Of a DNA stretch of 64,000 bases, positions 1 to 14,897 are shown in pieces; position 1 is the stretch's first letter; every line of letters begins with the position of its first letter. The notes beneath the pieces are model-generated. The model did not search any database and was not told where the DNA came from. It worked only from the letters and a program-made list of their open reading frames with translations. This stretch comes from a virus, in IMG/VR virus record IMGVR_UViG_3300010234_000004, positions 1 through 64,000 of that record; one strand, given 5' to 3'. The position numbers and the translations under genes were made by a program.

Positions 1-1
1 G

Positions 2-154
2 GTCTGGGATCGGGTTAATAATCAGGTCTGGGGTCAGGTCTATAATCAGGTCGAGAAACAGGTCGGGAATCCGGTCAGGCGTCAGGTCGAGGATCAGGTC
101 TGGCGTCAGGTCGCGGGTCAGGTCAGGAATCGGGTGTATGATGAAATCGGTTAG
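2..154 (+). CDS. QV-repeat mini-protein 1 (5' end outside window)
   Basis: Manual translation: VWDRVNNQVWGQVYNQV...RNRVYDEIG*; stop TAG at 152-154. Confidence 0.6.
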   Translation, partial: VWDRVNNQVWGQVYNQVEKQVGNPVRRQVEDQVWRQVAGQVRNRVYDEIG

Positions 155-353
155 GCAACAGGTCAAGACTCATGTCTGGAATCAGGTCGGGAATCAGGTC
201 GGGTATCAGGTCGGGAATCAGGTCTATAATCAGGTCGCGGGTCAGGTCAGGAATCGGGTCAGTATTCAGGTCGGGGGTCACGTCGGGGGTCATGTCAGGA
301 ATCAGGTCAGGCGTCAGGTCGAGGATCAGGTCTGGCGTCAGGTCTATAATTAG
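138..353 (+). CDS. QV-repeat mini-protein 2, ending at a CAG>TAG stop that removes the QVHDEIS tail
   Basis: MMKSVRQQV...QVYN*; the in-frame sequence after the TAG still reads VHDEIS*. Confidence 0.65.
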   Translation: MMKSVRQQVKTHVWNQVGNQVGYQVGNQVYNQVAGQVRNRVSIQVGGHVGGHVRNQVRRQVEDQVWRQVYN

Positions 354-357
354 GTGC

Positions 358-588
358 ATGATGAAATCAGTTAAGAAACAGTTCACACTTCATTCCTACA
401 AAGCCAAGACGGTCGATGGACGAATCTGTGTTATTGTAGAGAGTCAGATATTGGATCAGATCATGAAACGGGTCAAGGGTCAGGTCAAGGAAGATGTCTG
501 GGATCAGATATGGAGATCGCTTCATGGACCAGTCACGGTTCAACTTAGGAATCAGGTGTATAATCAGGTGCATGATGAAATCAGTTAG
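358..588 (+). CDS. QV-repeat mini-protein 3 (divergent, largely non-repetitive core)
   Basis: MMKSVKKQFTLHSYK...NQVYNQVHDEIS*; start placed at the conserved MMKSV rather than 172. Confidence 0.65.
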   Translation: MMKSVKKQFTLHSYKAKTVDGRICVIVESQILDQIMKRVKGQVKEDVWDQIWRSLHGPVTVQLRNQVYNQVHDEIS

Positions 589-760
589 GGATCAGGTCAG
601 TAGTCGGGTCTGGAATCAGGTCTATAATCAGATCGGGAATCAGGTCAGGTCTGGGGTCGAGGATCAGGTATGGGATCAGGTCAGTAATCAGGTCAGTATT
701 CGGGTCAGTATTCAGGTCTGGGGTCAGGTCAGGAGTCAGGTGCATGATGAAATCAGTTAG
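572..760 (+). CDS. QV-repeat mini-protein 4
   Basis: MMKSVRDQV...RSQVHDEIS*. Confidence 0.65.
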   Translation: MMKSVRDQVSSRVWNQVYNQIGNQVRSGVEDQVWDQVSNQVSIRVSIQVWGQVRSQVHDEIS

Positions 761-920
761 GAATCAGGTCGAGGATCGGGTCAGTAATCAGGTCAGGGGT
801 CATATCAGGAGTCAGGTCAGGATTCAGGTCAGTATTCAGGTCGAGGACCATGTCTGGGGTCAGGTCGAGGTTCAGGTCAGGAATCAGGTCAGGAGTCAGG
901 TGTATGATGAAATCAGTTAG
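744..920 (+). CDS. QV-repeat mini-protein 5 (58 aa, absent from the ORF track)
   Basis: Manual translation: MMKSVRNQVEDRVSNQV...RSQVYDEIS*. Confidence 0.65.
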   Translation: MMKSVRNQVEDRVSNQVRGHIRSQVRIQVSIQVEDHVWGQVEVQVRNQVRSQVYDEIS

Positions 921-1080
921 GAATCAGGTCGAGGATCGGGTCGAGGATCAGGCATGGGATCAGGTCAGGAATCAGGTCGGGGATCAGGTCTGGGGTCAGG
1001 TCTGGGATCAGGTCGGGCGTCAGGTCGGGGAACAGGTCGGGGGTTATGTCAGGAGTCAGGTGCATGATGAAATCAGTTAG
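904..1080 (+). CDS. QV-repeat mini-protein 6
   Basis: MMKSVRNQVEDRVEDQAWDQV...RSQVHDEIS*. Confidence 0.65.
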   Translation: MMKSVRNQVEDRVEDQAWDQVRNQVGDQVWGQVWDQVGRQVGEQVGGYVRSQVHDEIS

Positions 1081-1303
1081 GAATCAGGTCGAGGGTCATA
1101 TCAGGAGTAAGGTCAGGATTCAGGTCAGTATTCAGGTCGAGGATCATGTCTGGGATCAGGTCGAGGTTCAGGTCAGGAATCAGGTCAGGAGTCAGGTCTG
1201 GAATCAGGTCAGTAATCAGGTCAGTAATCAGGTCGAGGGTCAGGTCTGGGGTCAGGTCAGGGGTCATGTCTGGGATCAGGTCGAGGATCAGGTGTATATA
1301 TAG
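1064..1303 (+). CDS. QV-repeat mini-protein 7 (last in the array)
   Basis: MMKSVRNQVEGH...EDQVYI*. Confidence 0.65.
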   Translation: MMKSVRNQVEGHIRSKVRIQVSIQVEDHVWDQVEVQVRNQVRSQVWNQVSNQVSNQVEGQVWGQVRGHVWDQVEDQVYI

Positions 1304-1335: not shown

Positions 1336-1485
1336 ATGAAGCAAGAAGAATTTATTTGTGTGCACTGTGAGGCCGAATACCTTATTGAACACGATCAACC
1401 CATTATACGGGCCTGTCCCTTCTGTAAGGAGGATATGATGGTTGAGGCCGAATGTCTCGAATTAGGTCTGGAGTGGGATGAGTGA
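1336..1485 (+). CDS. Small zinc-ribbon protein (49 aa)
   Basis: Manual translation: MKQEEFICVHCEAEY...RACPFCKED...; CxxC..CxxC; GGAG SD; stop overlaps next start (GTGA). Confidence 0.75.
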   Translation: MKQEEFICVHCEAEYLIEHDQPIIRACPFCKEDMMVEAECLELGLEWDE

Positions 1486-1997
1486 CTTGGTTCCTAAACG
1501 GCAACAGGTTTAATCCTGATGAAGACAAATTGAAAGATTGGGTGGGGTTCGTTTACGTTATAACGGACCTGAAGAATGAGAAAAAGTACGTCGGGAAGAA
1601 GACATTCTGGTCGAGAACCAAGCTTCCACCTTTAAAGGGTAAAACCCGCAAGCGTATCAAGATCAAACCGTCCAACTGGATGGATTATTATGGGTCATCC
1701 GAAGTAGTAACAAAAATGTTGAATGAGCAGGGTGAAAAGAATTTTCATCGTGAGATCATACATCTCTGCACATCAAAAGGTGAAATGTCCTACATGGAGG
1801 CGAAGGAACAGTTCGACCGCAACGTTCTCTTGGACGATTCCTATTATAACGGGATCATCAACTGTAGGATTAATCAGACCCATGTACTGAAGGTTAAAGA
1901 ACGATGGTTGGCCAATATACGAGATAATACGAAAGAATTGTCGTATGTTGAAATTTTATCTATTGACTCGTCTGATAATTCTGCTATAATTATGTAG
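1482..1997 (+). CDS. GIY-YIG-like nuclease family protein
   Basis: GFVYVIT...KKYVGKK, YYGSS, E..EQF and YYNG motifs. Confidence 0.75.
   Translation: MTWFLNGNRFNPDEDKLKDWVGFVYVITDLKNEKKYVGKKTFWSRTKLPPLKGKTRKRIKIKPSNWMDYYGSSEVVTKMLNEQGEKNFHREIIHLCTSKGEMSYMEAKEQFDRNVLLDDSYYNGIINCRINQTHVLKVKERWLANIRDNTKELSYVEILSIDSSDNSAIIM
1963..1990 (+). promoter_or_regulatory. Sigma70-type early promoter
   Basis: TTGACT-16 nt-TATAAT with extended TG, then GAGGAG SD before 2022. Confidence 0.75.
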
Positions 1998-2021: not shown

Positions 2022-2291
2022 ATGGACTATGGTAGAGTGTTCGTCAAAAATGGTATTATAGGTGCTATCAAATTCAAATTTTATGCGGTGGTACTTTTCA
2101 CGTTTTTGGTGGGGTCTTATATGCTATACGATTCTAATATGGTGCTGAATGTTTTCTACTCATACGCTGTGCCATTCACAATCGCCCTCTCAGCGGCGGT
2201 GGCAACTTTCCCTTGGTTTGAATTAGGATATGCAGCGGTAATAACTGTATTTCACGCAGCCTTTACAAGTGAAAAGAGTGATAATGGTTGA
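2022..2291 (+). CDS. Small membrane protein
   Basis: Several hydrophobic segments; strong SD. Confidence 0.7.
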   Translation: MDYGRVFVKNGIIGAIKFKFYAVVLFTFLVGSYMLYDSNMVLNVFYSYAVPFTIALSAAVATFPWFELGYAAVITVFHAAFTSEKSDNG

Positions 2292-2997
2292 GCAATCGAG
2301 ACTTGATTGTTATCCGACGGGTGGTCCAAGGCCAAACATTCAACCAGCTAGGAAGGCACGCGATTGGATGGATAATACGCGTGACCGTTTTGCGTATAGG
2401 TGCCTACCTCTAGCCATCGCTAACAGGGTGGGGTGGGAGATTATCAACCCTGTGTCGTTTACTGCTGTATGGACCGGTAGTGACGATGTGCGGGGTCTTA
2501 TCATACAACCAGAGGGTGATGGTTGTATTGCGTCCAGTCATTTCGGTCATGGTATCCTGACATTTTCAGTTGGTGGTCTATTCAGAACAAGTGAGAACGT
2601 CCAGTTATGGGTCGGTGGTTCACCAAATGAGGTTAAGGACTCGATCCAGCCGTTGACTGGAATCGTGGAAACTGATTGGAGCCATATGACATTCACCATG
2701 AATTGGAAGTTCACGCGCAAGCACGAAACCATTCGATTCGAAAAAGACGAGCCGTTCTGCTTCATCATGCCTATGCAAGTGGGGTTGCTGGAGGACTTGG
2801 AACCCCGTTTCAATTCTTTTCAGACAGATACCGACCTGTGCTTGAAATATTACGGTTGGTCCGATAAGAGAGAGATGTTCAATAATGATCTACAGACCAG
2901 ATCGGACCCAGTCACGGGTAAGGATTCGTGGCAAAAGACTTATCATCGAACGGCGGATCGCAACAAGATAAGGCTGAAAGAGTTCAAGGATGCATGA
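2284..2997 (+). CDS. DUF6065-like protein
   Basis: RDWMD..FAYRCLPL.IAN..GW, SHFG.GILTF and L.GIVETDW...FTMNWK motifs; start chosen at the ATG overlapping the upstream stop. Confidence 0.7.
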   Translation: MVEQSRLDCYPTGGPRPNIQPARKARDWMDNTRDRFAYRCLPLAIANRVGWEIINPVSFTAVWTGSDDVRGLIIQPEGDGCIASSHFGHGILTFSVGGLFRTSENVQLWVGGSPNEVKDSIQPLTGIVETDWSHMTFTMNWKFTRKHETIRFEKDEPFCFIMPMQVGLLEDLEPRFNSFQTDTDLCLKYYGWSDKREMFNNDLQTRSDPVTGKDSWQKTYHRTADRNKIRLKEFKDA

Positions 2998-4081
2998 TTA
3001 TGGGTCGGGTAGTCTGGATGTTGTTATTGATATCACCACCAAATGCAATGCAGCATGTCCACAATGCGACAGAACTGATATTAGCAGGGGTGCCAAGATG
3101 GGCACTAATCCGGAATTACCCGACGAGAATATGACTTTGAATCAACTGCGCAAAGTAATCAACGCGTCAAATATCGATAGGGTTAGACACGTGTCATTCT
3201 GTCCTAGCTGGGGTGAGCCGATTATTAATAACGATTTCCCGTACATGTTGGATCATCTGTTCTCGTCGGCCATAAAGGCGGATACAGGATTGATGGTGTC
3301 AGTTGATACCAATGGTTCATTACGTAGCGATGAGTGGTGGTTCAGTATCGGTCGATTGATGTCCTTGTTTAGTAACGAAAGGGACGATTTGACCTTGAAC
3401 TTCCGATTTGCTGTGGATGGTATCGATCAAGCTATGCATGAGAAATATCGACGACGTACCAATTTGGACAAGGTTTTGGCCACTATGGAAATGGTATCGG
3501 CCTTTCCCGCCACGCGTGTGATGAGCCAGACAGTCGTATTCCAGCACAATCAGGACTATTTGAATGAGATAAAAAGCTTGACACAAAGGCACGGTAGTGT
3601 TGATCATTCGTTTGTTCGGTCTGAACGGTTCGGGGGTCGTCAGTTCGAGTTCTATAACGAAAACGATGAGAGCGAGACATTGACCATTGCTGATCCATTT
3701 GGTATAATAGAGACTGAACGATCAGAGTTTGGTATGACCCCATCTTGTGAGTATCAGAAGATAAACAAGGTGCATATCAACTATGATGGACAGGTGCTTC
3801 CGTGTTGCTATTTTGCTAATGCATATGTGGCAGGTAGCAGATGGTCTAAGCTGTCAGATGCTGGAAAGTGGAAGGAAAGCTGGATTGGTAAAGAGTACCT
3901 GAAGACTAAAGATGCCCACAACGCCTTCAATCGTGATCTGTTTGACATATTGGAGGGTAATTGGTGGACTAAGAAGCTCCCGTTCTCTTGGAAGCATTCT
4001 GAGGAGAATGGTGCCGTCCAGTGCAGCAAACATTGTAGTGCCAAAGGTGGTACGTTTCGTGTAGGAGCGCATAGAAAATGA
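2990..4081 (+). CDS. Radical SAM protein with C-terminal SPASM/twitch-like domain
   Basis: CNAACPQC (Cx3Cx2C), WGEP, DTNGS, DGQVLPCC and a terminal CxxxC. Confidence 0.9.
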   Translation: MHDYGSGSLDVVIDITTKCNAACPQCDRTDISRGAKMGTNPELPDENMTLNQLRKVINASNIDRVRHVSFCPSWGEPIINNDFPYMLDHLFSSAIKADTGLMVSVDTNGSLRSDEWWFSIGRLMSLFSNERDDLTLNFRFAVDGIDQAMHEKYRRRTNLDKVLATMEMVSAFPATRVMSQTVVFQHNQDYLNEIKSLTQRHGSVDHSFVRSERFGGRQFEFYNENDESETLTIADPFGIIETERSEFGMTPSCEYQKINKVHINYDGQVLPCCYFANAYVAGSRWSKLSDAGKWKESWIGKEYLKTKDAHNAFNRDLFDILEGNWWTKKLPFSWKHSEENGAVQCSKHCSAKGGTFRVGAHRK

Positions 4082-5430
4082 CGAATAAGATTTTAGGGGT
4101 CAGTTCTGGATTCCACAACGCAGCATATGCATTAATTGAGGGTCGAGAGATACTGAGCGCAGAGGAAAGCGAGCGGTTCACGCTCAAAAAGAATGATCCG
4201 CATCTTAGAACCGACCATTTGGATGGTCTGGGTTGGGATCAATCGGTTTTTTACGAGAAGCCGTTCAAGAAGAATATCCGACGTTTGATCTATGGTCAGG
4301 GGTGGAAAAAGACGAAAAGTATCACCGACTCATATGTCGATCATCACTGGAGTCATGCAGCGGGGGCATATTACACGCGTCCAAACCATTTTCCAGAGCC
4401 TGTATGTGTCGTTATCGATGCTATTGGTGAGTGGGACACAGCGTCAATTTGGTTTAAAAAGAAAAAGGTCTGGAGTATGAGATACCCGAAATCGCTTGGG
4501 TTATTCTATTCAGCGGTGACCAAAGAGCTTGGATACACGCCTAATGAGGATGAACACGTCACCATGGCACTTGCAGCTTTGGGTGAACCCATTCATGCAG
4601 ACGTGTTGATGGAGATGGCGCACGAAAACTGTCATAAAGGTCTAGCATACGATTCTCGATTATTCTTTGCTGAACCAATCGATTTGGCGGCATCCGCACA
4701 ACTGGTGCTAGAGATTGAGGTCAAGAAGATCATGGAGAGAGCGCATAAGTATTCCGAATACTTGTGTTATGCGGGGGGTGTAGCTCTAAACTGTGTGGCC
4801 AATTCAAAAATATATCACATGTTCAAAGACATTTGGATCATGCCAAACCCTGGTGATGCTGGGTCTGCGTTAGGCTGTGCAGCCGCAATTAATGATAAAC
4901 GACTACATTGGAGAGGACCATATCTTGGATATAATATCGAGCGCGAAATCAACCCTAAAGAGGTCGCTGCGCACATTTCTAAACTTGGCGTTGCTGGCGT
5001 TGCTAATGGTCGCGGTGAGTTTGGTCCTCGCGCTTTTGGCAATCGTAGTATTCTCGCTGATCCCCGTGGCGATATTAAACCTACTGTGGACCGCATTAAA
5101 AAACGTCAATCGTTTAGGCCTTTCGCCCCAGCGATTCTGGAAGAACATGCGAAAAGCTATTTCAAAGGGCCAATGAACGAATACATGCAATTCGTCGCTA
5201 GAGCTAAACACGGCTACAATTCCGTAACTCATGTTGACGGAACCAGTCGCGTACAAGTAGTAACAAAAGACTGTGAATCGGTAATCAGGCCGATACTGGA
5301 GGAATGGTATGAGTTGACGGGGTGTCCAATGTTGCTAAATACTAGTATGAACGTGAAGGGTGAGCCTATGCCTAGAAGTTGGTGGGGCGCAAAACACTTC
5401 CAAGTCAAGTCTAAAGTCAAAGTATTTTGA
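4078..5430 (+). CDS. Carbamoyltransferase, NodU/CmcH family
   Basis: EERF-like motif, HHWSHAA, AGGVALNCVAN, GDAG, EFGPRAFGNRSILADP, RPFAP, HVDGTSRVQ and LNTS. Confidence 0.95.
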   Translation: MTNKILGVSSGFHNAAYALIEGREILSAEESERFTLKKNDPHLRTDHLDGLGWDQSVFYEKPFKKNIRRLIYGQGWKKTKSITDSYVDHHWSHAAGAYYTRPNHFPEPVCVVIDAIGEWDTASIWFKKKKVWSMRYPKSLGLFYSAVTKELGYTPNEDEHVTMALAALGEPIHADVLMEMAHENCHKGLAYDSRLFFAEPIDLAASAQLVLEIEVKKIMERAHKYSEYLCYAGGVALNCVANSKIYHMFKDIWIMPNPGDAGSALGCAAAINDKRLHWRGPYLGYNIEREINPKEVAAHISKLGVAGVANGRGEFGPRAFGNRSILADPRGDIKPTVDRIKKRQSFRPFAPAILEEHAKSYFKGPMNEYMQFVARAKHGYNSVTHVDGTSRVQVVTKDCESVIRPILEEWYELTGCPMLLNTSMNVKGEPMPRSWWGAKHFQVKSKVKVF

Positions 5431-12217: not shown

Positions 12218-12246
12218 ATAGTATCATACCAAAAGGCCTAAGTCAA
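12218..12246 (-). promoter_or_regulatory. Sigma70-type promoter
   Basis: TTGACT-17 nt-TACTAT with extended TG on the minus strand. Confidence 0.7.
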
Positions 12247-14897
12247 CCCTTCATCAAGGATTTAGCCTTTTCCCTAACATCATGGTGGATACTACCCATA
12301 TAGACGGCAGTGACATAGATTGACGTGGTTTGATCGGATGTCTCCCAAGGGTCTTTAGCGTTACGTTCAATGATCTTGAATGTGGACCCAGGGGGGAGAA
12401 TCAACTCACGTTCGCCGTGATGCAGTGGTGAATATTTATTGGTTAATAGTGGAACTACAGGCGTTCCCTTTGGCAGGTAAAATCTGAATCGGATTTGAGA
12501 AGCGAAATCGATACTGGCTTTGATTGACGTACTCATAAATCCACCATCCCAATACAACTCGCCCGGAACCAAATTTTCCCTGAATTGCATTTTCGAAACA
12601 CCTAACGGGGGGTTATATGGTGCATCTGTTCCGCGATATACCCACATATTTTCTGGTGTAGTCGGAAGGTCTTCGAAACATTGTAGCAGATTTTGGCATT
12701 TCGATACAGGCATGTAAATATCATCGTTTGCAGCACTAGGGCTTAGGTGATTAATATCATTATCATCAACGGGTGAGTATTCGAGTTTCTTTGGATCAGC
12801 TTCGGCCACCTTATCATAAATTGATCTTAGAGCGTTGTTAACATCACCAGAACTACTCGAATATTTGTGAATAGCGTTCTTTTGAGAAGCCGACAATTTT
12901 TCCATAGCAGACCCGAAATAGTCCATTAAAAATTTTTCAACCTTAGTATCGTTTTCGTACCAATTATCCTGATGCCACTGGCGTCTGTGGGTCTTACCTG
13001 GAATGGCTATAGGACCAAAGGGGTCGTCATTAATGGTGTCGTGTAAAGCTTCGGCTGTTACGGAAGTCGACTTGAGAATTGTATGCCCAGACAAAAGGTC
13101 GGTTGAGGCTGAAGAAGAAATATTAGCCTCAGTATCAATACCGTCCAGCTTTTTGGCGTTATCAGAATTCAACCATTCTTTCATTTTTTTGAGAGGCTCT
13201 GCGTTCTGTTTCATTAAACTGTCAATGTTTGTGTATGATGCAATAGCTTTCATTACCTCGCGCCATGCGTCAAGATCAGACAAATCCGTCGATAGACCGA
13301 CATGATCCAACGTAGCCATTTTACTGAATGACAATTTATCCACGACATACTTCAGGTTTGATTTGTTGAACATGGATTCATCATAACCATGTTTCAACAA
13401 ATTTATAACCATGCCATTGAATGAAAGCGTTTGCATTATGGCTGCGATCTTCTGAGGCATGGTCGCGGGCTTTTTAATCCATGCCAAGGTGTCCTCTTCT
13501 TCGTCACTAGCACCATTAGGTGAAGCAAGCTCCTTAGACTTTGCATCGCCAAGTTGACGAACTTTCCTGATCTTAACAATACCAGAGCCAATAACGCCTT
13601 CGATTGTATCATTATCGCCTTTAACTTTAGGAATGAAAGTGCCATCATTAACATCTAGTTTAAAATCATAATAAAGTGATGCGAGACTGCGGTGTTTAAT
13701 TTTGTTGATATCACCGTTCTTTTTGAACATTCCAACCTCTTTCATCAGAACAACGTCCATTTTAGTGGCTTTAAAAACCTTATCCAAAAAAAGTTTACTG
13801 ACGGATACTGCTGCTGCTTCCTTCCTCCCAGTAACATGATCATTTGGGCTGAGTTCCATAAGGTCGTCGATTTCCTCACGTATAGCATTAAATATGGGTA
13901 GCGCCATCCATACCGCAAAATCATCAAACGTTTTATGACCCAACATCAAGCTTTTAATAGAAAGAGATGTCTTCGAATTGAAATCGTCTTTCGAGTGGTC
14001 GGAAAAAGTAGATTCGGACGTTTTAGCTTGGTCAGCTTTATCAACAAGGTCTTTAGCCTTCTCTACTTCTTTCATTTTTTCTTCATCGTGGTTGAGCGTG
14101 ACCGTATCTTTGGTATTAACGCCACCGATAACGTCTACGATATCATCGTTCGTCAACTGAACTTTCAACCCAGAGATCGCGTATTTCTTAGATGGCGTGA
14201 CTGACTTAACAGGTTTTACTACTACTTTCGGTTTCAGTTCAGCCAAGGTTTCATACGGAAGAGGATTCTTCGTGGTCAGACCTTTTGATAGATCGAAATC
14301 ATAACCCAACGTTTTGAAGTTCTTCGCCTTGAATATGGTAGCGGGAACCACGACCTTTTTGGCTATGAAAAGATAACGTTGCGTCTTACCATAAAAAACG
14401 CCCTTCTCGCCTGCCTTATTCTTCTTGGTTTCAACGTCAGGCTGCTTTACGGGAACGATCTTCATAGACTTCATGTAGGACTTTTTGATCATCTTGGTGG
14501 CGATGCGCTCAGACACCTCCATCATTTTTGTGTTAGCCATACGGAAACGAACGGCGATGCCCTTCAGCTTCGGTCCCAACAACTGCATAGACGTTTCAAC
14601 GAACTTTACCAGAGTGGACAACACTGGACGCAAATCTGACGGGGAATGGAACTTCCAATAATAAGACTTCCCGCCGCCCTTCGGTGTCCTCCCAACGTCC
14701 AAAATGTACATTCCTGCTGTTTTCGATTGTACTAGAGATATGACATACATGCTGTTTTCATCACCATCAATTGAGAAAGCCGCGTGCACTTGCATGGGCA
14801 ATTTGGTGTCATCAGTCATGTAAAATTCTTGAGGTGAATTGAGCGATTCAGTTAAGGAATGATCGTCTATAAAGCTTCTGAAATCCATTGTTTCCAT
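12243..14897 (-). CDS. alt: Alt-like NAD:protein ADP-ribosyltransferase (884 aa)
   Basis: C-terminal R-S-E ART motifs: Y...VN.ALR, VYRG, FMSTS, ERELILP; preceded by a late promoter. Confidence 0.8.
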   Translation of the reverse strand: METMDFRSFIDDHSLTESLNSPQEFYMTDDTKLPMQVHAAFSIDGDENSMYVISLVQSKTAGMYILDVGRTPKGGGKSYYWKFHSPSDLRPVLSTLVKFVETSMQLLGPKLKGIAVRFRMANTKMMEVSERIATKMIKKSYMKSMKIVPVKQPDVETKKNKAGEKGVFYGKTQRYLFIAKKVVVPATIFKAKNFKTLGYDFDLSKGLTTKNPLPYETLAELKPKVVVKPVKSVTPSKKYAISGLKVQLTNDDIVDVIGGVNTKDTVTLNHDEEKMKEVEKAKDLVDKADQAKTSESTFSDHSKDDFNSKTSLSIKSLMLGHKTFDDFAVWMALPIFNAIREEIDDLMELSPNDHVTGRKEAAAVSVSKLFLDKVFKATKMDVVLMKEVGMFKKNGDINKIKHRSLASLYYDFKLDVNDGTFIPKVKGDNDTIEGVIGSGIVKIRKVRQLGDAKSKELASPNGASDEEEDTLAWIKKPATMPQKIAAIMQTLSFNGMVINLLKHGYDESMFNKSNLKYVVDKLSFSKMATLDHVGLSTDLSDLDAWREVMKAIASYTNIDSLMKQNAEPLKKMKEWLNSDNAKKLDGIDTEANISSSASTDLLSGHTILKSTSVTAEALHDTINDDPFGPIAIPGKTHRRQWHQDNWYENDTKVEKFLMDYFGSAMEKLSASQKNAIHKYSSSSGDVNNALRSIYDKVAEADPKKLEYSPVDDNDINHLSPSAANDDIYMPVSKCQNLLQCFEDLPTTPENMWVYRGTDAPYNPPLGVSKMQFRENLVPGELYWDGGFMSTSIKASIDFASQIRFRFYLPKGTPVVPLLTNKYSPLHHGERELILPPGSTFKIIERNAKDPWETSDQTTSIYVTAVYMGSIHHDVREKAKSLMKG

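What the first reader, a model, noticed from the sequence alone, without database searches (positions are those of the whole stretch)
1..1303. Array of at least 7 variable (xxQV)n mini-genes chained by a conserved 17-nt start/stop overlap
Seen: at the junction ATGATGAAATCAGTTAG one frame reads (H/Y)DEIS* and ends a gene, while another frame reads MMKSV(R/K) and starts the next. The cores are shuffled 12-nt units drawn from a small vocabulary (WDQV, RNQV, SIQV, EDQV, YNQV, WGQV). Blocks recur between copies, for example GHIRSxVRIQVSIQVEDHVWxQVEVQVRNQVRSQV in genes 5 and 7. Gene lengths differ but frame is always kept. Inference: a translationally coupled, recombination-driven peptide library with fixed ends and a variable core. 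It could act as anti-defence decoys or as polymer/amyloid-like tetrad-repeat peptides. I know of no function described for it.
Basis: partly seen in the sequence, partly recalled or inferred. Interest (0 to 1): 0.85.

Follow-up and report, generated by a model that had tools for sequence, protein, structure and literature searches.

The report
Hypervariable QV-repeat mini-gene array
An uncultured marine T4-like phage carries chains of tiny overlapping genes built from a fast-changing four-amino-acid repeat (two variable residues, then Gln-Val). They are free-standing copies of a repeat that other phages build into one unstudied protein (DUF6745), and they look like a library of exchangeable parts for it, with function unknown.

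Summary
Window 1-1303 holds seven chained mini-ORFs of (xxQV)n; the first is cut by the contig start. They are linked by a 17-nt start/stop module that never occurs in shuffles. The window starts at base 1 of a 102.6-kb, about 63% complete T4-like contig. That contig has three more arrays (about 20 such genes), and both contig ends break inside arrays.

Only the QV frame avoids stop codons (0 seen; 11.5 and 26.9 expected). It has ATG starts behind Shine-Dalgarno-like sequences and runs with the neighbouring genes.

The peptides match the internal repeat tract of DUF6745 proteins (E down to 1e-32). Marine contigs with the same junction carry a repeat-less DUF6745 between such arrays, next to rIIA/rIIB. 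There the flanks differ by at most 0.6%, while the arrays differ by up to 21%, almost only in the two variable codons.

A complex model docks a window peptide onto that DUF6745: score 0.78, best control 0.08. This contig holds no DUF6745, and no expression data could be obtained.

Decoy or amyloid roles are not supported. This scan found the same class earlier on other DNA. I found no paper on it.

The parts
2..154 (+). Mini-gene 1, 3' part only. It holds (xxQV)n and ends ..YDEIG-stop.
   Evidence: The 5' end is cut by the contig start. Bases 1-55 are identical to contig 89785 downward on the minus strand.
138..353 (+). Mini-gene 2, 71 aa. It has the MMKSV head and ends at a premature TAG in the last unit, so it lacks the usual tail.
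358..588 (+). Mini-gene 3, 76 aa. It has the canonical head and tail, but its core is mostly non-repeat, with degenerate units near the 3' end.
   Evidence: There is no Pfam or PHROG family match.
572..760 (+). Mini-gene 4, 62 aa
744..920 (+). Mini-gene 5, 58 aa. It shares a long block with mini-gene 7.
904..1080 (+). Mini-gene 6, 58 aa. This is the peptide used in the complex model.
1064..1303 (+). Mini-gene 7, 79 aa, the last of the array. It ends in a degenerate junction (..QVYI-stop).
   Evidence: AlphaFold2 on the single sequence gives one helix over residues 2-77, pLDDT 80.
744..760 (+). Example of the 17-nt dual-coding junction module. It holds the stop of gene n and the ATG-ATG start of gene n+1 in the +1 frame. 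Other copies lie at 138, 358, 572, 904 and 1064.
   Evidence: 6 matches with at most 1 mismatch, 0 in shuffles.
731..742 (+). Shine-Dalgarno-like AGGAG (731-735) and AGGTG (738-742) ahead of the start at 744. The same arrangement lies at 891-902 and 1051-1062.
   Evidence: CAGGTG replaces CAGGTC almost only directly before a junction (15 of 16 cases).

Best explanation
Window 1-1303 is one of four arrays, about 20 genes in all, of real overlapping protein-coding micro-genes in an uncultured marine T4-like myovirus.

**The products.** Each gene encodes a 54-79-aa peptide read in the QV frame. It has a short fixed head, a run of tetrads (two variable residues, then Gln-Val) and a short fixed tail. 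The peptide is predicted to be helical. The peptides are detached, multiplied copies of the hypervariable tetrapeptide tract that DUF6745 proteins carry between their N- and C-terminal parts.

**How the arrays change.** The arrays evolve by exchange, gain and loss of 12-nt units. The constant CAGGTC half of the unit supplies the homology. Change is kept only in the first two positions of the two variable codons (inferred: concerted evolution plus diversifying selection).

**How they are expressed.** Ribosomes are passed from gene to gene through the overlapping stop/start module, which has its own Shine-Dalgarno-like sequence (inferred).

**What they do.** The products most likely dock through their conserved Gln/Val ladder onto a repeat-less DUF6745 core, so that one core can carry many alternative variable surfaces (inferred from a model). 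In the closest relatives that core gene lies between such arrays, beside rIIA/rIIB. In this phage it would have to lie in the unassembled third of the genome. What the DUF6745-peptide complex does is unknown. The hypervariability suggests that it meets a variable host or competitor molecule.
For: **The QV frame is coding**
- Hexamers between the constant cores show 0 stops in the QV frame. Expected under positional independence: 11.5 in this contig (n=154) and 26.9 in relatives (n=716).
- The other two forward frames show no avoidance: 25 against 22.8, 21 against 23.4, and 26 against 17.2.
- Variation sits at unit positions 1, 2, 4 and 5 (1.3-1.7 bits), all of them non-synonymous only in this frame.
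- ATG-ATG starts lie behind AGGAG and AGGTG.
- All four arrays run in the same direction as their neighbouring genes.
- The junction module is grafted onto the 3' ends of two unrelated enzyme genes.

**Family link**
- A phmmer search of the 79-aa peptide against 1.84 billion proteins gave 542 hits at E up to 1e-3. The best reached 2e-32.
- The best hits are mostly 300-600 aa proteins. Six of ten tested carry PF20530, the Pfam model for DUF6745.
- The tract is read in this frame inside long ORFs.

**Closest relatives**
- 21 marine metagenome contigs hold the same degenerate junction.
- Seven of them have a 303-aa repeat-less DUF6745 flanked by arrays with the same head and tail.
- One 9.2-kb contig reads array, DUF6745, 150-aa gene, array, rIIA, rIIB, array.

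**Hypervariability**
- The DUF6745 gene and a 544-nt flank differ by 0-3 nt between contigs.
- The first 132 nt of the array differ by up to 28 nt, and 86 of 93 differences lie at positions 1, 2, 4 and 5.

**Docking model**
- The window peptide 904-1080 with the relative's DUF6745 scored 0.78; the best of 3 controls scored 0.08.
- That mark was reached by 58 of 80 solved complexes and 2 of 110 mismatched pairs.
- The runs share at least 60% of their contacts, and the partner's pLDDT is at least 79.
- Contacts follow the Q/V ladder. They fall on core residues of about 60-114, around the site where long relatives carry the tract.
- There is no solved relative from which the model could have remembered the complex.
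Against: - This 102.6-kb contig has no DUF6745 and no homologue of the 150-aa partner gene. Tested with Pfam and PHROG family searches, my own N- and C-domain profiles on the six-frame translation, and phmmer. Here the arrays adjoin a TET-associated glycosyltransferase gene, a Glu/Leu/Phe/Val-dehydrogenase-like gene and a SegE homing endonuclease gene.
- There are no transcript, ribosome or peptide data.
- The docking result is a model. Its core comes from another phage, and it may simply reproduce how the tract packs inside long DUF6745 proteins.
- Slippage of a 12-nt unit keeps the frame mechanically, so frame conservation alone is weak evidence.
- The reverse in-register frame cannot form stops, so the stop test does not exclude it.
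- One relative with a 74% identical DUF6745 has no array within 6 kb upstream.
- One mini-gene in a relative is frameshifted, and one in this window has a premature stop.
Confidence: 0.55

Rival explanations
1. The peptides are translated but act on their own, without DUF6745. They could be self-assembling helical or polymer-like peptides, or decoys or sponges for a host factor.
For: - No DUF6745 is present in the 102.6 kb held.
- All three arrays whose upstream or downstream side lies inside the contig adjoin unrelated genes.
- The peptide alone is predicted as one long helix, pLDDT 80.
Against: - The contig is about 63% complete and both ends break inside arrays.
- The only relatives with the same junction keep a DUF6745 between arrays.
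- The same tract is covalently part of DUF6745 in hundreds of proteins.
- A valine every fourth residue does not give a persistent hydrophobic face on a straight alpha-helix (own reasoning).
- No defence or anti-defence family matched.
Confidence: 0.2
2. The arrays are a selfish or neutral expanding 12-nt DNA repeat, perhaps a recombination hot spot. The ORFs would be by-products with no function as proteins.
For: - Synonymous positions 3, 6, 9 and 12 of the unit hardly vary. That points to a constraint or homogenisation at the DNA level.
- Exact blocks are shared between arrays in both orientations.
- Assemblies break in the arrays.
- A 12-nt period preserves the frame without any selection.
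Against: - Stop codons are avoided in the QV frame only.
- The start/stop module with its Shine-Dalgarno-like sequence is conserved between phages whose cores differ.
- Other lineages keep mini-ORFs with a different junction, an ATGA overlap.
- The variable residues are restricted to polar, charged, Trp and Gly types.
- The same repeat is undoubtedly coding inside DUF6745 genes.
Confidence: 0.12
3. The coding frame is a different one. It would be either the minus-strand in-register frame, a (Asp-Leu-x-Pro)-like repeat with its own ATG and stop per unit, or the +1 frame, a Ser-Gly-Ile-Arg-like repeat.
For: - Both frames are open across the cores.
- Half of the variable positions are wobble positions in these frames.
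- The reverse frame cannot contain stops.
Against: - There is no Shine-Dalgarno-like sequence before the minus-strand ATG.
- That frame runs against all neighbouring genes.
- The +1 frame has no conserved start. In lineages with another junction it becomes a different peptide, whereas QV stays.
- Second codon positions in these frames vary as much as the wobble positions.
- Long DUF6745 ORFs fix the QV frame.
Confidence: 0.04
4. The array is an assembly artefact of short reads.
For: The first and last 55 nt of the contig are exact copies of internal array sequence. That is typical of a k=55 assembly-graph break.
Against: - The same architecture appears in four places in the contig.
- It also appears in about 20 independently assembled marine contigs from different projects.
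- The interior of the array has unique unit orders anchored to unique flanks.
Confidence: 0.03

Closest known systems
Pfam DUF6745 (PF20530; phrog_31813) proteins with an internal tetrapeptide tract, for example gene 38 of Mycobacterium phage prophiGD102-1 (annotated as a hypothetical protein)
   Same: - They carry the same xxQ(V/L) tetrad repeat, read in the same frame. Variation is confined to the two x codons, and the number of tetrads differs greatly between proteins.
- The tail of the window peptides resembles the distal end of such tracts.
   Different: - There the tract is one internal segment of a 300-600-aa protein. Here it is cut into about 20 separate genes of 54-79 aa, each with its own start, stop and ribosome-binding site, and no DUF6745 domain is on the contig.
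- DUF6745 itself has no known function, no solved relative and no paper in the library searched.
Detached QV mini-gene arrays beside a repeat-less DUF6745 in other T4-like phage contigs. These are known from earlier notes of this scan and were re-found here in IMG/VR contigs 3300005512_001286 and 3300025889_000291 and in marine contigs such as Ga0302118_10002496.
   Same: - The 12-nt unit, the chained overlapping mini-ORFs and the hypervariability are the same.
- The marine contigs share the identical head, tail and 17-nt junction.
   Different: - In those contigs the arrays directly flank DUF6745. In this contig they flank unrelated genes, and the core gene is not on the contig.
- The IMG/VR examples use an ATGA overlap, where the next gene lies in the -1 frame, instead of the 17-nt overlap, where it lies in the +1 frame.
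Repeat-driven contingency loci, and cassette systems that diversify a binding protein (VNTRs in surface-protein genes, shufflons, diversity-generating retroelements)
   Same: Localised, very fast variation of a protein surface next to conserved sequence, with a repeat as the engine (established knowledge).
   Different: - Every variant here is a separate, apparently co-expressed gene, not one gene that switches.
- There is no invertase site.
- There is no reverse transcriptase on the contig.
- Changes are not limited to adenines.
Translationally coupled overlapping genes (ATGA or TAATG type overlaps in phage operons)
   Same: The stop of one gene overlaps the start of the next, and a Shine-Dalgarno-like sequence lies inside the upstream gene.
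   Different: - The overlap is 17 nt, codes in both frames, and is itself a repeated, portable module.
- Coupling has not been measured.

Membership tests
DUF6745 (PF20530) proteins | A DUF6745 C-terminal domain of about 200 aa | tested here: not met
   - Pfam found no match in the mini-proteins.
- PF20530 or phrog_31813 found no match anywhere in the 102.6-kb contig.
- My own profile search found none either.
- The contig is only about 63% complete.
DUF6745 (PF20530) proteins | An internal xxQ(V/L) tetrapeptide tract. This is common in the family but not part of the Pfam model. | tested here: met
   - phmmer gave 542 hits, the best at 2e-32.
- The hits fall in the tract of DUF6745 proteins.
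- E-values are inflated by the repeat.
Detached QV mini-gene array with a repeat-less DUF6745 | A tandem chain of mini-ORFs with a fixed head and tail and overlapping stop and start | tested here: met
Detached QV mini-gene array with a repeat-less DUF6745 | A 12-nt unit with a constant CAGGTC half and variation confined to positions 1 and 2 of the two x codons | tested here: met
Detached QV mini-gene array with a repeat-less DUF6745 | A repeat-less DUF6745 gene adjacent to an array | tested here: inconclusive
   - It is absent from the contig.
- Both contig ends lie inside arrays.
- Seven of 21 contigs with the same junction do have it.
Detached QV mini-gene array with a repeat-less DUF6745 | Arrays that are hypervariable between strains with near-identical flanks | tested here: met
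   - This was shown in the closest relatives, not in this phage itself.
- No near-identical copy of this contig was available.
Detached QV mini-gene array with a repeat-less DUF6745 | The mini-protein binds the DUF6745 core | not testable with these tools
   - Only a model is available. It scored 0.78, and the best control scored 0.08.
- The mark was reached by 58 of 80 solved complexes and 2 of 110 mismatched pairs.
- The core was taken from a related phage.
Diversity-generating retroelement target | A reverse transcriptase plus a template/variable repeat pair with adenine-specific changes | tested here: not met
   - No RVT_1 (the Pfam reverse-transcriptase domain) on the contig.
- The variable positions interchange T, G and A.
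Pentapeptide-repeat proteins (PF00805) | A five-residue period forming a beta-helix | tested here: not met
   - The period is 4 residues, or 12 nt.
- Pfam found no match.
- The model is helical.
Translationally coupled overlapping genes | Stop and start overlap, with a ribosome-binding site inside the upstream gene | tested here: met
   Coupling itself has not been measured.

The most novel reading that the evidence does not exclude
The phage makes a protein-level cassette system. Dozens of co-expressed, fast-evolving helical micro-proteins each dock in trans, through an invariant Gln/Val ladder, into the same site of one DUF6745 core. This would give a population of complexes with different exposed surfaces that track a variable host or rival-phage target. 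The 12-nt unit with an invariant half would be the built-in engine of diversification.
Probability: 0.35. Interest if true: 0.85.

Novelty: new variant of a known kind. Interest (0 to 1): 0.7.

Why it matters
**If the peptides are made and bind DUF6745.** This would be a way of diversifying a protein surface that differs from DGRs, shufflons and single-gene repeat variation. The variable part is split off, multiplied into a gene library and exchanged in trans on a constant core. It would also give a first handle on DUF6745, a widespread phage and prophage family with no described function.

**For genome annotation.** Gene callers and assemblers handle these regions badly. No protein of similar length was found in a 5.8-billion-protein index, and contigs break inside the arrays. 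About 3-4% of such phage genomes is therefore missed or mis-annotated.

**For genome stability.** Identical blocks of 30-67 nt in arrays of both orientations may drive rearrangements in T4-like genomes.

Tried and rejected
**Searches that found nothing useful**
- blastn of the array and of an 8-kb structural block against GenBank phages: no match.
- Word-indexed protein search at near length: no candidate.
- Exact 17-nt junction in IMG/VR: three chance hits without arrays.
- Degenerate junction in IMG/VR: none.
- Relatives of the neighbouring DUF6065 gene in IMG/VR: none.
A single-protein query gave 4 loci.
- Fold of the relative's DUF6745 against the PDB: Foldseek gave nothing at E up to 1e-3. 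VIA-align gave a best Z of 5.2 (rmsd 4.1 Å, 67 aligned residues), on one beta-sheet part only.
- PDB by sequence: none for DUF6745, and one spurious low-complexity hit for the peptide.
- ESM Atlas: nothing informative.
- PADLOC: none.
- Rfam on 1-2000: none.
- Literature searches for DUF6745, PF20530, and "tetrapeptide repeat" with phage: no papers.

**Tools unavailable**

**Ideas considered and dropped**
- A DGR: no reverse transcriptase, and the changes are not adenine-specific.
- Pentapeptide-type beta-helix: wrong period.
- Heptad coiled coil: a period of 4 is out of range.
- Programmed +1 frameshift at the junction joining the genes into one polyprotein: the frames would fit, but the P-site codon cannot re-pair.
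- A universal DNA-level constraint on wobble bases. G at unit position 3 and T at position 6 held across loci of 28-69% GC, but those loci were found with a CAGGTC pattern. An independently found mycobacteriophage tract uses C at position 6 and CTC for the last codon. Only the near-absence of synonymous variation within each tract is general.
Full report
**1. What is there**

The window is the first 64 kb of a 102,602-nt IMG/VR virus record, classed as linear and about 63% complete. The gene content is T4-like:
- gp6- and gp8-type baseplate proteins
- an RNase H-like 5'-3' exonuclease
- a SegE GIY-YIG endonuclease
- DUF6065, a radical-SAM protein and a carbamoyltransferase
- an 884-aa ADP-ribosyltransferase

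No psbA gene was found. All relatives of the array come from marine metagenomes.

Bases 1-1303 consist of 12-nt units. Tandem Repeats Finder gives period 12. The units are organised as seven ORFs on the plus strand.

Six copies of a 17-nt module link the ORFs. None was found in 100 shuffles. One frame of the module ends a gene with (H/Y)DEIS-stop. The +1 frame starts the next gene with Met-Met-Lys-Ser-Val. The chain therefore steps through the three frames.

Head-to-head spacing is 4 mod 12 in 31 of 39 cases. The module amounts to one unit plus four extra bases.

Three points were missed within the array:
- Gene 138-353 ends at a premature TAG.
- Gene 358-588 has a mostly non-repeat core.
- The first gene is cut by the contig start.

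**2. The array is not alone, and the contig ends are assembly breaks**

The contig has three more arrays, all on the minus strand: about 89285-90668 (eight genes), 96902-97096 (one gene) and 101955-102602 (four genes, running off the other end). That makes about 20 repeat genes.

There are also two ORFs with the same head but no repeats, and one 14-aa ORF that is head plus tail only.

The arrays share exact blocks of 30-172 nt. The first 55 nt of the contig equal a stretch of the second array. The last 55 nt equal a stretch of the third array. This is what a k=55 assembly-graph break looks like. "At least 7" genes is therefore right, but the left edge is technical.

**3. Which frame is read**

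All three forward frames and one reverse frame are open across the cores, so this had to be tested.

- **Where the variation lies.** The unit is N N (G/T) N N T C A G G T C. Entropy is 1.3-1.7 bits at positions 1, 2, 4 and 5 and low elsewhere. Only in the QV frame are all four variable positions first or second codon positions.
- **Stop-codon test.** I took every hexamer lying between two constant cores, without assuming a frame. Expected counts assume positional independence.

| Frame | This contig (n=154): seen / expected | Relatives (n=716): seen / expected |
|---|---|---|
| QV | 0 / 11.5 | 0 / 26.9 |
| +1 | 0 / 0 | 26 / 17.2 |
| +2 | 25 / 22.8 | 21 / 23.4 |

- The reverse in-register frame cannot form stops, so this test does not bear on it.
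- **Starts.** Each start is an ATG-ATG preceded by AGGTG, often with AGGAG 8 nt upstream. The valine codon changes from GTC (189 times) to GTG (16 times) almost only in the unit just before a junction, in 15 of 16 cases. The minus-strand ATG has no such sequence before it.
- **Orientation.** All arrays run with their neighbouring genes.
- **Other lineages.** Their junction is a plain ATGA overlap, and the out-of-frame peptides are different. The QV frame stays.
- **Long proteins.** The same repeat lies in this frame inside long ORFs with conserved flanking domains.

I conclude that the QV frame is coding. No transcript or peptide data could be obtained.

**4. What the repeat is related to**

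A pattern scan of IMG/VR for four in-register CAGGTC cores gave more than 117 loci. They fall into two classes:
- **Long proteins.** An N-terminal part of about 85-130 aa, then a tract of 5-60 tetrads, then a C-terminal part of about 215 aa that is Pfam DUF6745.
- **Mini-gene arrays like this one.**

A full phmmer search with the 79-aa peptide gave 542 representatives at E up to 1e-3. The best reached 2e-32. The best hits are mostly 300-600 aa, with the match inside the tract. Six of ten tested carry PF20530. The E-values are inflated by the repeat, but the architecture is consistent.

In two IMG/VR contigs with arrays, a repeat-less DUF6745 of about 300 aa follows the array.

DUF6745 has no known function:
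- No paper in the library searched mentions it.
- It has no PDB relative by sequence.
- Its predicted structure (pLDDT 87.5) matched no solved fold.
- It has no PADLOC match.
- In GenBank phages it is annotated only as a hypothetical protein.

**5. The closest relatives**

The degenerate form of this window's junction is absent from IMG/VR. It occurs in 21 marine metagenome contigs, from TARA and several JGI projects. Most of them hold arrays with the same head and tail.

Seven of them contain a 303-aa repeat-less DUF6745 with arrays on both sides. The longest, at 9.2 kb, reads: array fragment, DUF6745, a 150-aa gene, eight mini-genes, rIIA, rIIB, four more mini-genes.

None of these flanking genes has a homologue in our contig, and our contig has no rIIA. 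This fits a picture in which that module lies in the unassembled third of our genome, bounded by the arrays where the assembly broke. That is an inference.

**6. Hypervariability**

Four of these contigs come from different samples.
- Their DUF6745 coding sequences differ by 0-2 of 855 nt.
- The 544 nt downstream differ by 0-3 nt.
- From the first unit of the array onward they differ by up to 28 of 132 nt, and there is a 12-nt indel.
- 86 of 93 differences lie at unit positions 1, 2, 4 and 5.
- Two contigs with identical DUF6745 genes have upstream mini-genes with different unit number and order.

It is shown in relatives, not in this phage itself.

Synonymous positions hardly vary within any tract, while the amino-acid-changing positions vary freely. 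The simplest reading is rapid unit turnover (concerted evolution) with retention of amino-acid variants.

I first thought the wobble bases were conserved across lineages of 28-69% GC. That sample was chosen by a CAGGTC pattern. A mycobacteriophage tract found independently uses other wobble bases and Leu for Val.

**7. How it may work**

- **Fold.** Alone, the 79-aa peptide is predicted as one helix over residues 2-77, pLDDT 80, from a single sequence.
- **Complex model.** It paired the window's 58-aa peptide (904-1080) with the marine DUF6745. The result supports binding but does not show it.
  - Score 0.78; best of 3 controls 0.08.
  - The mark was reached by 58 of 80 solved complexes and 2 of 110 mismatched pairs. 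These counts hold only roughly, because my own alignment was used.
  - The runs agree in at least 60% of their contacts, and the partner's pLDDT is at least 79.
- **Interface.** Contacts on the peptide recur every four residues, on Gln, Val and the following residue. On the core they cluster at about residues 60-114, around the point where long relatives carry the tract. The model thus puts the conserved ladder against the core and leaves mainly the second variable residue exposed.
- **Caveats.** The core is from another phage. The model may only be reproducing the intramolecular packing of long family members.
- **Portable junctions.** Two junction types occur in this contig. The second uses a GTG start 7 nt behind GAGGAG. 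Both are found fused to the 3' ends of unrelated enzyme genes, whose products thereby end in the array's tail. This suggests that the module is a portable coupling device.

**8. Verdict**

- **Best reading (about 0.55).** These are translated, coupled micro-genes. They are detached, multiplied and hypervariable copies of the DUF6745 tract, and they probably dock on a DUF6745 core encoded off-contig.
- **Rivals.**
  - Stand-alone peptides: 0.2.
  - A selfish DNA repeat without protein function: 0.12.
  - Another coding frame: 0.04.
  - An assembly artefact: 0.03.
- **Prior sightings.** The same class was noted several times by this scan on other genomes. I re-derived the DUF6745 link independently (before reading those notes). 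I then tested their adjacency, hypervariability and docking claims on new loci.
- **What is different here.**
  - There are four arrays in one genome, none of them next to DUF6745 in the assembled part.
  - The junction is a 17-nt, +1-frame module.
  - Junction modules are grafted onto unrelated genes.
- **Literature.** I found no publication describing any of this.

Noticed in passing
window 1-55 and contig 102548-102602: The first 55 nt of the contig are identical to contig 89785 downward. The last 55 nt are identical to 97054 downward. Both contig ends are repeat-induced assembly breaks (k=55-like), and arrays of both orientations share blocks of 30-67 nt that could mediate inversions or deletions.
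   Followed up: partly
window 1336-1997: Directly after the array lie a 49-aa ORF with two CxxC pairs (zinc-ribbon-like) and then a SegE-type GIY-YIG homing endonuclease (Pfam E 3e-36). A mobile endonuclease thus sits at the edge of the recombining array.
   Followed up: partly
window 358-588; contig 101971-101777 (minus); contig 89836-89792 (minus): The MMKSV head is also carried by two ORFs with little or no repeat content (76 aa and 64 aa). A 14-aa ORF consists of head plus tail only, as expected from recombination between junction modules.
   Followed up: partly
contig 97080-98051 (minus) and 90583-91785 (minus), outside the window: A Glu/Leu/Phe/Val-dehydrogenase-like gene ends in ..DEIG-stop, and a TET-associated glycosyltransferase gene ends in ..RNQVEEKISE-stop. 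Array junction modules are therefore fused to the 3' ends of unrelated genes. The second junction type starts the next gene with GTG behind GAGGAG.
   Followed up: partly
window 12243-14897 (minus): An 884-aa protein with a C-terminal ADP-ribosyltransferase exoenzyme domain (Pfam E 3e-17). It resembles the Alt-type packaged ADP-ribosyltransferases of T4-like phages.
   Followed up: no
window 2269-5430: A cluster of DUF6065 (E 3e-87), a radical-SAM/SPASM protein and a carbamoyltransferase lies just downstream of the array.
   Followed up: no
L146 2622-2946 (Ga0302118_10002496): One mini-gene of the related marine phage changes frame in mid-core and continues in the -1 frame (Gly-Ser-Gly-Gln-like). 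This is either a frameshifted copy or an assembly error. It is the only such case among about 50 mini-genes inspected.
   Followed up: no
L131 (IMGVR_UViG_3300038701_003621): A repeat-less DUF6745 that is 74% identical to the one beside the array of L100 has no QV mini-genes within the 6 kb upstream. Arrays are not always present next to this gene.
   Followed up: no
L012-L128 (IMG/VR pattern hits): Many contigs end inside the DUF6745 tract: ORFs with a full N-terminal part and a tract that runs off the contig. These tracts commonly break short-read assemblies.
   Followed up: no
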